Below, piece after piece: positions 48,001-51,400 of a DNA stretch of 64,000 nucleotides (position 1 is its first letter; each line of letters begins with the position of its first letter). The position numbers were made by a program. Source of the DNA: Thalia democratica (taxonomy: Eukaryota); assembly GCA_965202585.1 (NCBI GenBank), contig OZ241830.1, forward strand, positions 43,152,001-43,216,000. The letters run 5' to 3'.

Positions 48001-48445
48001 AATTATTTTTACAACCAACATTTTGTTAAAAATTTAAACTTGCACCATAGGCATGTTCAGTCACAAGAAAAATAGAATGTGGCTCACAATACAGTCAGCC
48101 AGGGTTCTGTTACAAAGCAGGAGGTGTCAAGCAAACTTGGTTTCGTTTTTACCCTGGTTCTAGCCACGGTATGTTTCCTTATTTGGTTGTTAGCTGTTTC
48201 TTAATGGTAATTTCAATAACTAAGTACTGTTTATAAGGCACTGATGTATAAATTGTTATCATCAAGTATCAATCATTTGAGGAAAATATTAATTACTTAT
48301 TTGTCTGAACAGAGTTTTTTTTAAGAGCTCAATGCTAATATACGTACAAAATATTTAACTATGTTTTGTAATACTTTAAGTTAAAAATTTTAAGTCCAGT
48401 TTTTTAAAGCAGAATTTTAAGCATTATTAAATTTTAACTATTAGC

Positions 48446-48481
<36 letters not shown>

Positions 48482-51400
48482 TGAAACTGTTGAAATTAAA
48501 GCTAACAGTTAAAACTTTAATAACTAAAAGGTCTAAAATTTTACAAGTTTAGTCAAGTTTTTACAAAAACAGTAATTTCTTTATAACTTTATTTAAGCCA
48601 TATTGTTGTGCAGGTTTTTCCAAAGCTAGCAATCTTACCCCTTTAGAAACGATTTCAACTATAAGGGGCCGTTATTTTTGCGGCGAAAAAATAAATGTTA
48701 ACTAGTTAGTAAAAAGGCGATTTCTAAAATTAAGGGCGACAATATTTTTAACTTTTGCCCAAGGGGCTTTTATGAAATTTAGTTTGGTAAACCTTATTAT
48801 ATTGTATGCATTAAGTTGAACTACCATATTTGCTAAAAGGTTTTGTTTTGTCGTTTATAGATTACTGCCATATCAAAAATAATAAAACAAAGGCGGATCT
48901 TAATATGGTTGGGTTTTCGTCTGCAAGAATTACTATGAAAAAAGTTTGTTAAATATTACTTTGTGTAAATCATTGCATGAAACAAATTAGTTAAACTTAG
49001 TATGATAAATAACTAATACGATTAATATAGAAAGTTTAGTTAAAGTATTTTTAATAAAAGTTTAGATAAGTTAAATTCAAGAATTAAACAACTTGTTATG
49101 AGTTCAAATCTTAAATTATTAAAACTTTAGTTTTTTTAACTTTTTTAAAGGTTTTTTTTTTTAAACATGTTTTAAAGTTATTAAAACTTGATAAACAGGA
49201 TGTGTTATTTAATTTTCTAATGTAGCTTTTTGTACCTATTAGAAGATTGTTTTTTAAATAAATGACAATTTTGATGATAAAACCTAATAAATAATTGATG
49301 TTTTGTGAATGTTTGTTTTGACTAAAGAAAAACTATGGACTTTATCCGAAGGTAAGTGTTGTTGCAAGATAATAGTCGTGTTTTTTTCAAATCTTAGTGT
49401 CTTAAGCATTTAAAAATTTAACTAGTAGTAATATAACTGTTCAAAATATAGGTTTAATCGTTTGCTAACAAAAGATCCTAATGAAGTAACTTCACTAGAA
49501 TATAAATAAAAACAAATTGTACAGTAATCTTCCTTTGTTGTACCAACATATGTTTCTGTGTTGATTCGTTAACACACAGAAACATATGTTGGTACAATAA
49601 AGGAAGATTACTGTACAATTTGCTTTTATATAGTAGTAATATATAAATTCATCTAGAACAATTTGTAGTTACATTTTTTGAATTAGTTAAAACCTAAAAT
49701 ACTGTTTTGATCAGTCCTTACGTATAATAGCTATATAACTTAAAAGTTGTTTACTAGAAGTTAAAAGACTTAAATTTTTTAATCTTTTTCATTCTTTTGT
49801 AAGATACAAGCATTATTTAGTGGTCAAAACATATTTTTTTTAGTTGAATATGAAAACTAAAAGTTAGCTTAACGATAACCGTTACAAATTATAAATAAAA
49901 TGTTAGCTAAAACAAACTGACGTTATAAAATTTGTCTTGTTTAGAGGAACAATTAACTTGTTAAAAACAAGAGTCTAGCAAAATATCATTATTGAAAAAA
50001 TATTTTAAGTAATTATACATCTTTTTTTTTTTATTTTATACTGTAAATGTAACTGAAATAAGTTAACAATAGTTTTTCTAATATGGTATAACTACGAAAA
50101 ATTATAAAAAGAAGAAAGAGTAGTCTGAGTTTAATCTCTACATTTAAAGATAAATATATTTTATTGAATGTTGAACGAACAACAGCTAGTTAGTATTTTG
50201 TGTTGATAATTGTTAAATTCTACGTCTTTGTTGTCTTTGAACTTATAAATTATTTTACAAAGTTTACGAAATCGACTTCAAGACACTTTACAAGTGCATT
50301 AGTCAAAGGTTAGTCTAAAACTCTAAATACTCTATAAAGGTGTGAAAAAATAGCCTAATCTAAACATTTTAAGCAGTATTTTATTAAGACTATTGTTCAA
50401 ATCATTTAGAATCATAGATGTATATACAGAAAGTGTAATAAACTAACCACAAGGACTGTGAATCCCTTATCATTTTCCCTTTAGTAGTAAAACAGGTTTA
50501 ATGTAGTCTGAAATACATACTATGATAATAATTATATTGTTTTATTATAATAATGATATTTACGGTGTGCACGAAATTCATTTTAGGGTTCACGAACTTT
50601 AGCTTAAACTTTTGTTATTTTTTATTGGATAGATAATTTTTGAATTTTCGCATCGTAACAAACAAAACTAAAAGTAAAATCGTTAAAATTATTAATTAGT
50701 TAAAAGTTTGCTAATGTGCCACCCATCAATGATAAGTATTAAAATTAATGATACCCTACATATAAACTATTTTTCGATAAACTTGAAAACCATCAGAAAC
50801 ATGTCGATATTTTAGTTTAAAAAAATTGATAAAATTTAGATTTCTGTCTGAAAATAATTGAAGTTCAAAAGTTTTGATCGTTTTTACAATTAGTATAACT
50901 TTAGTTATATGGAGCTAAAATTTAAAATGGTTCTTTAGCTTATATAAAAAAAAGCACGCAAAAAACTAACGTTTAGCAAAAATATAAATGTAGCCATCAA
51001 TTTACTCGTTTAAAAAAGTCCTTAACAAAAAAATAGTTAGTATAAATAAAAAATATAACTTTGTTTTGGCTCCTCAAAATTTTTATTTTATCATTCCTTT
51101 GTAAAAAAAACTTGATGTCTTTGTTCATTTGTAATATTTTTAATATACATATTTTATTTGCTCTTTGAATTATTCTTTTAGTGCTGCAATTAGAAAATAA
51201 CTTTGTGAACTCATTTTTTTAATAGTAGTAATGATTTCAGTAAGTAAAAAACTAATTTGTAAAGTTAAGGTGCTATTAAAAATTGTACATAAAAAAAAAG
51301 TTATCGGCCCTACCTCTTTAATCTAAAAGTATTTCTACAAAATATTTTGTATAAGTAATACAAAAACTAACCTTGTTTTTTTTTTCGTCATTAGTATACA

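What the first reader, a model, noticed from the sequence alone, without database searches (positions are those of the whole stretch)
48051..48943. Integrin alpha with I-domain-clade signatures but no I-domain
Seen in sequence: exon 4 encodes ECGSQYSQPGFCY and ends in phase 1. Exon 5 (phase 1 to 0) encodes DYC...ADLNMVGFSS. The 692-nt intron between them is AT-rich, with no VWA/MIDAS (DxSxS) coding. Established (recalled): vertebrate alpha1/2/10/11 have CG..YY.TG.C before the I-domain and F..EMSQ.GFS in a short phase 1-to-0 exon just after it; the I-domain sits between phase-1 introns; alpha-I integrins are chordate-restricted. Here the Cys that normally precedes the I-domain lies in the 'post-I' exon. 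Inference: either clean exon-level loss of the I-domain or a relic of the pre-insertion state, which bears on how alpha-I integrins arose.
Basis: partly seen in the sequence, partly recalled or inferred. Interest (0 to 1): 0.65.

Follow-up and report, generated by a model that had tools for sequence, protein, structure and literature searches.

The report
Integrin-alpha-like gene start, no I-domain
Five small exons look like the start of an integrin alpha-type adhesion receptor gene with no inserted I-domain, but the rest of the gene is not in the window and its link to I-domain integrins could not be tested.

Summary
The two exons, their phases (0 to 1, then 1 to 0) and the 692-nt AT-rich intron with no VWA/MIDAS coding are as described. 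With three upstream exons they form a coding-looking 5' gene part. E1-E4 beat 361 of 361 non-coding ORFs in codon score; 19 of 361 reach E5. Exons are better conserved than introns against a 95%-identical relative.

Read by eye, the order is integrin-alpha-like: signal peptide, FG...GAP, FG...AC, a Cys-rich linker, GFS. No search confirmed this. Exon by exon, Pfam, PDB, 1.84 billion representatives, the word-index search and the Atlas gave no integrin match.

No further integrin exon, Ca-binding motif or GFFKR occurs anywhere in the window. A convergent WDR47-like gene ends 10 kb downstream.

The "I-domain-clade signature" rests on recalled motifs only. An I-less clade closest to the alpha-I integrins is already published for cephalochordates. 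Loss versus pre-insertion relic cannot be decided here. The window is not taken for human.

The parts
44857..45050 (+). Exon 1: ATG, hydrophobic signal-peptide-like start, first FG motif (…DFFGYQVRVGLK); ends in phase 2, donor GTGAGT
   Evidence: Codon score 0.46 bits/codon, reached by 0 of 361 null ORFs. 61 of 64 residues identical to P0003.
45220..45282 (+). Exon 2, 63 nt, phase 2 to 2: HIFIGAPYRRTSVDYSDPKC (the GAP half of blade 1); donor GTAAGT
   Evidence: Score 0.64, reached by 0 of 361. The only [IVLAS]G[AS]P match on the + strand of this gene.
47526..47658 (+). Exon 3, phase 2 to 0: …GGEVFRTNQ…SDTFGLDI (end of blade 1, FG of blade 2); donor GTAAGA
   Evidence: Score 0.69, reached by 0 of 361.
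47659..47685 (+). Possible extension of exon 3 to a second phase-0 donor, GTTAGT. It adds nine residues ending in two valines directly before exon 4's Ala-Cys
   Evidence: Read. In-frame score 0.47 bits/codon over 9 codons. A GTTAGT donor is used in the neighbouring WDR47-like gene. Inference, not shown.
48051..48168 (+). Exon 4, phase 0 to 1: ACSVTRKIECGSQYSQPGFCYKAGGVKQTWFRFYPGSSH plus one base; three Cys spaced C-x7-C-x9-C; donor GTATGT
   Evidence: Score 0.50, reached by 0 of 361.
48169..48860 (+). Intron 4, 692 nt, phase 1, 25.3% GC, holds a (TTA)n run; no VWA/MIDAS coding
   Evidence: No repeat copy elsewhere in the window.
48861..48943 (+). Exon 5, 83 nt, phase 1 to 0: fourth Cys, then …ADLNMVGFSSARITMKK (start of blade 3); donor GTTTGT. 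If the donor is not used, a stop follows after two codons
   Evidence: Score 0.10, reached by 19 of 361. The same donor hexamer GTTTGT is read at a WDR47-like exon end whose junction matches the spliced relative P0006.

Best explanation
These are the first five coding exons of a divergent gene of the integrin-alpha type. They encode a signal peptide, propeller blade 1 (FG...GAP), blade 2 (FG...Ala-Cys), a four-cysteine linker between blades 2 and 3, and the first strand of blade 3 (GFS). The linker runs straight from exon 4 into exon 5 across one phase-1 intron, so the chain has no inserted VWA/I-domain. A full-length product would therefore bind ligand at the alpha/beta interface, as I-less integrins do. 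The remainder of the gene (Ca-binding blades, thigh, calf, membrane anchor) is not in this window. Shown: the exons, phases, coding potential, conservation and the absence of an I-domain. Inferred: the integrin identity and the mode of action. Its relation to the I-domain clade stays open.
For: Exon and intron anatomy. Coding potential: E1-E4 are each reached by 0 of 361 null ORFs, and the proposed frame is the best of three for every exon. Constraint: against the unspliced relative P0003, 5 of 85 exon codons differ versus 12 of 55 intron codons, Fisher p=0.007. For E1 against the intron-1 read-through it is 3 of 64 versus 9 of 35, p=0.004. The motif order FG, GAP, FG, AC-x7-C-x9-C, C, GFS is read. 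The weak-looking donors are normal here: read by eye from the printed flanks, donors of the WDR47-like gene include GTTTGT, GTTAGT, GTTGGT and GTTTTT. The I-domain of chordate alpha chains sits between blades 2 and 3 (review PMC2784866, passage), which is where intron 4 lies. Exon 2 is 63 nt, the same size as exon 3 of four Ciona A-domain alpha genes. Exons 3, 4 and 5 (133, 118, 83 nt) are close to Ciona exons 4, 5 and 11 (127, 121-123, 86-90 nt) (PMC1145181, Table 1 as quoted). This is a weak parallel.
Against: No search supports integrin identity. Pfam gave 0 families for 5 of 5 exon ORFs at E up to 10. PDB gave 0 hits for E1, E3, extended E3 and E5, and 2 non-integrin hits for E4 (an antibody Fab and flavocetin-A). 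The 1.84-billion representative library gave 2 hits for E4, both repeat proteins without an integrin Pfam domain. The Atlas gave nothing usable. There are 0 matches to D.[DN].[DN]G..[DE] and 0 to GFF[KR]R on either strand of the whole window. No coding-looking + strand ORF lies between 48944 and 59000. The convergent WDR47-like gene ends at 59034. E5's codon score is not distinctive. The lone Cys at the end of exon 2 is Ser or Gly in the relative (worked out by hand).
Confidence: 0.5

Rival explanations
1. Truncated copy or short gene. Only the 5' fifth of an alpha-integrin-type gene survives here, from a partial duplication or a decaying gene. Alternatively, it now encodes a secreted protein of about 200 aa that ends two codons after exon 5. 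Whether an I-domain is present would then say little about how alpha-I integrins arose.
For: No further exon-like ORF lies on the + strand from 48944 to 59000. There are only two small GC islands there, and neither has convincing splice sites or frames. The window has no Ca-motif or GFFKR. The convergent gene's stop is at 59034. Read-through of the exon 5 donor gives a stop after two codons. E5 has a weak codon score. A Cys of exon 2 is not kept in the 95% relative (by hand).
Against: Exons are clearly better conserved than introns against the relative, which argues against a long-dead pseudogene. The GTTTGT donor is functional elsewhere in this genome. The region is gene-poor with introns up to about 4.4 kb in the teneurin-like gene. 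A long intron, or a gene nested in an intron, is therefore not excluded.
Confidence: 0.25
2. This is an alpha chain of the I-domain lineage that lacks the I-domain, either by clean loss of the I-domain exons between two phase-1 introns or as a survivor of the pre-insertion state.
For: The phase-1 intron lies at the blade 2/3 linker, where chordate I-domains sit. From recall only, with no call behind it: human alpha1, alphaL and alphaM have the same Cys spacing (Ala-Cys, x7, Cys, x9, Cys, about 20, Cys) just before the I-domain, whereas I-less chains have a hairpin of about 20 residues between the first two Cys and the last Cys three residues before G-[FIV]-S. Exon sizes parallel Ciona A-domain genes, apart from the Ciona exons 6-10.
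Against: Nothing was tested: no reference alpha sequences were available, no phylogeny was made, and the joined step was left out. Neither an I/LEGT nor a VDGT internal-ligand-like motif (Hollis 2025) is seen in E4 or E5. The organism is unknown. Its teneurin-like exon matches vertebrate teneurin-2 only at E=3.5e-5, so there is no sign that it is a close relative of vertebrates. The gene is incomplete in the window.
Confidence: 0.13
3. Not an integrin. This is a lineage-specific secreted Cys-containing protein whose FG, GAP and GFS motifs resemble an FG-GAP propeller by chance or through distant kinship with other FG-GAP proteins.
For: All exon-level searches were negative. Short motifs carry little weight.
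Against: The co-linear order and spacing of five expected motifs across consecutive exons that each score as coding. GFS is rare: 19 in about 128,000 codons. Exons of 20-64 aa are too short for N-terminal propeller blades to reach significance, and these blades are seldom matched by Pfam (the latter point is from established knowledge, not tested here).
Confidence: 0.15

Closest known systems
I-less integrin alpha chains (PS1/laminin, PS2/RGD and alpha4/alpha9 clades)
   Same: Signal peptide, FG...GAP blades, four Cys in the blade 2/3 linker, and G-F-S opening blade 3. No VWA domain.
   Different: By recall only: those chains have a longer hairpin between the first two Cys, and the last Cys lies three residues before G-[FIV]-S. 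Here the spacing is C-x7-C-x9-C-x22-C, with 14 residues between the last Cys and GFS. No sequence match was obtained, and the rest of the chain was not seen.
Alpha-I (A-domain) integrins of vertebrates and tunicates
   Same: Position of a phase-1 intron in the blade 2/3 linker. Recalled Cys spacing. Exon sizes near those of Ciona alpha5-8 exons 3, 4, 5 and 11.
   Different: No I-domain and no MIDAS. No I/LEGT internal ligand in E4 or E5. No counterpart of Ciona exons 6-10.
Cephalochordate-specific I-less alpha clade, the closest outgroup of alpha-I integrins (Hollis et al. 2025, PMC12422189, sections 9 and 10 read)
   Same: The concept is the same: an I-less chain close to the alpha-I lineage. 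So this kind of chain is already described.
   Different: That clade carries a VDGT motif in the linker. None is present here. The window's 25-30% GC is well below the roughly 41% I recall for amphioxus (recall, no call). Their figure S11 is in supplements that were closed.

Membership tests
Integrin alpha subunit | N-terminal signal peptide followed by FG-GAP propeller blades | tested here: inconclusive
   Blades 1, 2 and the start of 3 are recognised by motif order only. Pfam found 0 families in 5 of 5 exon ORFs.
Integrin alpha subunit | Ca-binding D-x-D/N-x-D/N-G-x-x-D/E loops in the last three or four blades | tested here: not met
   0 matches on either strand of the whole 64 kb. The 3' part of the gene may lie outside the window.
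Integrin alpha subunit | Thigh and calf domains, transmembrane helix and GFFKR | tested here: not met
   0 matches to GFF[KR]R. No coding-looking + strand ORF after exon 5 up to 59 kb.
Integrin alpha subunit | Significant sequence or profile similarity to known alpha chains | tested here: not met
   Tested exon by exon only. The joined model was not searched.
Alpha-I (I-domain) integrin clade | VWA/I-domain with DxSxS MIDAS between blades 2 and 3 | tested here: not met
   Intron 4 is closed in all six frames and has no D.S.S. Of 5 D.S.S matches between 26.5 and 59 kb, none is in a coding-looking context.
Alpha-I (I-domain) integrin clade | Internal ligand I/LEGT after the I-domain (Hollis 2025) | tested here: not met
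   The motif is absent from the E4 and E5 translations. The motif is as given.
Alpha-I (I-domain) integrin clade | Groups with alpha-I chains in a propeller phylogeny | not tested
   No reference alpha sequences could be drawn from any tool. Only about 200 residues are in the window. The joined step was left out.
Alpha-I (I-domain) integrin clade | Cys spacing and the CG..Y...G.C motif before the insertion point, and M..GFS after it | not testable with these tools
The spacing here is read.

The most novel reading that the evidence does not exclude
The window holds the start of a functional alpha-integrin gene from a poorly sampled, AT-rich bilaterian. Its blade 2/3 linker keeps the disulfide spacing of I-domain integrins and has a single phase-1 intron exactly where chordates carry the I-domain exons. 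That would make it either a clean exon-level I-domain deletion or a living example of the acceptor site before insertion, outside cephalochordates.
Probability: 0.12. Interest if true: 0.6.

Novelty: new member of a known kind. Interest (0 to 1): 0.3.

Why it matters
How the I-domain entered an alpha-integrin gene early in chordate evolution is an active question. Hollis et al. 2025 trace the domain to collagen VI-like VWA domains and name a cephalochordate I-less clade as the closest outgroup. A second I-less chain with an alpha-I-like linker and a phase-1 intron at the insertion point would give an independent view of the acceptor site. If the organism is a tunicate, it would instead be a case of clean domain loss. 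As it stands, this is an unannotated, probably expressed, integrin-alpha-like gene start whose clade is unknown. That is ordinary until the full transcript and the organism are known.

Tried and rejected
**Exon-level searches that found nothing useful**
- Pfam on the five exon ORFs.
- PDB phmmer on E1, E3, extended E3, E4 and E5.
- ESM Atlas on E4 and extended E3.
- Word-index search with the E4 ORF.

**Representative-library search with E4**
- Its two hits are a satellite-like repeat protein (22 weak stretches summed) and a bacterial secretion-tail repeat protein.
- I rejected both as spurious.

**Word-index search with E1**
- It found only an unspliced genomic ORF from a relative (P0003).
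- That was useful for judging conservation but not for gene structure.

**Search for downstream exons**
- Tried a motif scan, a GC-island scan, an ORF composition filter and a reading of the two GC islands at 54.8 and 55.6 kb.
- Nothing convincing turned up.

**GC islands inside introns 2 and 4**
- They have no other copy in the window.
- They remain unexplained.

**Organism**
- Rfam and tRNA scans were empty.
- Only "bilaterian, likely" can be said, from the teneurin-like gene.

**Literature**
- No held paper gave intron phases around vertebrate I-domain exons (search; find in PMC4237329).
- For PMC2115490 only the abstract and references are held.

**Codon-level comparison with P0003**
- The two exon 2 differences were worked out by hand instead.

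Full report
**The window**

The window is 64 kb at 21-40% GC (mostly 23-32%) with no N. I do not take it for human. Its genes match vertebrate proteins only weakly, and its non-coding DNA is about 25% GC.

**The observation**

- The acceptor and donor dinucleotides are in place. Each exon is open in one frame only.
- Exon 4 is 118 nt and exon 5 is 83 nt. This gives phase 0 to 1 and then 1 to 0.
- The intron is 692 nt at 25.3% GC. It has 12-27 stops in every frame and no D.S.S motif.
- It has no copy elsewhere in the window.

**The gene around it**

Three exons lie upstream on the + strand:
- E1, 44857-45050: an ATG, a hydrophobic signal-peptide-like start and an FG motif. It ends in phase 2.
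- E2, 45220-45282: 63 nt, with the GAP motif.
- E3, 47526-47658: the second FG motif.

A second phase-0 donor, GTTAGT, at 47685 would add nine residues. These end in two valines directly before exon 4's Ala-Cys, which is the usual look of the third strand of blade 2. This is inference.

I trained a codon model on 2131 codons of the two neighbouring genes. E1-E4 score 0.46-0.69 bits/codon. None of 361 non-coding ORFs reaches those values, and the proposed frame is the best of three for each exon. E5 scores 0.10, which 19 of 361 reach.

The weak-looking donors are normal here. At exon ends of the WDR47-like gene, fixed by a spliced relative, I read GTTTGT, GTTAGT, GTTGGT, GTTTTT, GTATTC and GTAAGT from the printed flanks.

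**Evidence that the gene is real**

The word-index search with E1 found one protein, P0003 (139 aa, 95% identical, source ENA). It is an unspliced ORF that runs from E1 through intron 1 into E2 in another frame.
- 5 of 85 exon codons differ, against 12 of 55 intron codons (p=0.007).
- For E1 against the intron-1 read-through, it is 3 of 64 against 9 of 35 (p=0.004).
- By hand, the two differences in E2 are one synonymous change (Ile) and one change of the final Cys to Ser or Gly.

**Is it an integrin alpha?**

Read by eye, the order is what an alpha-chain N-terminus looks like: signal peptide, FG...GAP, FG...Ala-Cys, then C-x7-C-x9-C-x22-C, then GFS.

No tool confirmed it. Exons of 20-64 aa have little power.

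| Search | Result |
|---|---|
| Pfam, 5 exon ORFs, E up to 10 | 0 families in 5 of 5 |
| PDB, E1, E3, extended E3, E5 | 0 hits |
| PDB, E4 | 2 non-integrin hits |
| Word index, E4 ORF | nothing |
| 1.84-billion representative library, E4 | 2 hits, both repeat proteins without integrin domains |
| Atlas, E4 and extended E3 | nothing usable |

No reference alpha sequence could be drawn from any tool, so no alignment or tree was made.

**The gene is incomplete here**

- After exon 5, reading through the donor gives a stop after two codons.
- On the + strand from 48944 to 59000 there is no coding-looking ORF.
- That stretch has only two small GC islands, and neither has convincing frames or splice sites.
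- The whole window has 0 Ca-loop motifs and 0 GFFKR on either strand.
- Of 5 D.S.S matches between 26.5 and 59 kb, none sits in a coding-looking context.
- A WDR47-like gene lies on the minus strand. Residues 429-850 of its 91%-identical spliced relative P0006 map from 62649 down to 59034.
- The two genes are therefore convergent and leave about 10 kb between them.

Four readings remain:
- Intron 5 is very long and contains that gene.
- The rest was lost.
- The gene encodes a short protein.
- The assembly is incomplete.

**The I-domain question**

The I-domain of chordate alpha chains sits between blades 2 and 3 (PMC2784866, passage). Intron 4 lies in that linker and is phase 1.

The claimed signatures are recalled. 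It is that human alpha1, alphaL and alphaM have Ala-Cys, x7, Cys, x9, Cys, then about 20 residues to a Cys just before the I-domain. I also recall that I-less chains have a much longer first hairpin. None of this comes from a call.

One printed datum gives a weak parallel. Ciona alpha5-8 (A-domain chains) have exon sizes 161-170, 128, 63, 127 (67 in one), 121-123, 80-116, then 187-219, 179-181, 57-68, 179-180, then 86-90 (PMC1145181, Table 1 as quoted). Here the sizes are 194, 63, 133, 118 and 83. Whether I-less genes share these sizes was not checked.

- Neither I/LEGT nor VDGT is present in E4 or E5.
- Hollis et al. 2025 (PMC12422189; abstract and sections 9 and 10 read, further passages by find) already describe a cephalochordate I-less clade as the closest outgroup of alpha-I integrins.
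- Their figure S11 and the sequence file of Ewan et al. are supplements, which were closed. Both bear directly on the claim.

**The organism**

- A teneurin-like gene fills the minus strand from 1 to about 26130. It hits the Pfam models TEN_YD-shell, FN-plug_TEN1-4, TTR_TEN1-4 and EGF_TEN, and PDB teneurin-2 at E=3.5e-5.
- Teneurins were not found in sponges, cnidarians, ctenophores or placozoans (PMC3278476, abstract and passages). A bilaterian is therefore likely.
- The closest database relatives are unnamed records at 91-95% identity.
- Rfam and tRNA scans were empty.
- Without the taxon, loss and pre-insertion state cannot be told apart.

**What stayed unchecked**

- Transcript evidence for the 48168/48861 junction.
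- Any search, fold or phylogeny of the joined model.
- Intron phases of vertebrate I-domain exons: the search found nothing relevant.

**Verdict**

The integrin reading is reasonable but unproven. The absence of an I-domain is shown. The link to the I-domain clade is an untested lead, on a gene that is only one-fifth visible.

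Noticed in passing
window 1-26130, minus strand: A large teneurin-like gene. It has an N-terminal intracellular exon, a transmembrane exon near 21000, EGF exons, and TTR, FN-plug and YD-shell exons. It hits teneurin-specific Pfam models but matches PDB teneurin-2 only weakly (E=3.5e-5 for a 152-aa exon). It runs off the window's start.
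   Followed up: partly
window 59034-62649 and beyond, minus strand: A WDR47-like gene (its relative P0006 has the WDR47_COR domain and WD40 repeats). It is convergent with the integrin-like gene. Residues 429-850 of P0006 map here at 60-100% identity per segment, and the N-terminal half lies beyond 62649.
   Followed up: partly
window 59475-62515, donor sites of the WDR47-like gene: Many donors have T at the third intron base (GTTTGT, GTTAGT, GTTGGT, GTTTTT), read by eye from the flanks. This is an unusual splice-donor habit and might help identify the lineage.
   Followed up: no
window 45278 (last codon of exon 2): The lone Cys that ends exon 2 is Ser or Gly in the 95%-identical relative P0003. 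The other exon 2 difference is synonymous. Worked out by hand.
   Followed up: partly
window 45544-45686 and 48594-48695: GC-richer islands (0.43-0.45) sit inside introns 2 and 4 of the integrin-like gene. They have no convincing in-phase exon and no other copy in the window. Their purpose is unknown.
   Followed up: partly
window 26130-44857: About 18.7 kb between the teneurin-like and integrin-like gene starts (divergent orientation). It has several GC islands but no convincing ORF, so the region is gene-poor.
   Followed up: no
window 48446-48480: A (TTA)n microsatellite of about 11 units lies inside intron 4.
   Followed up: no
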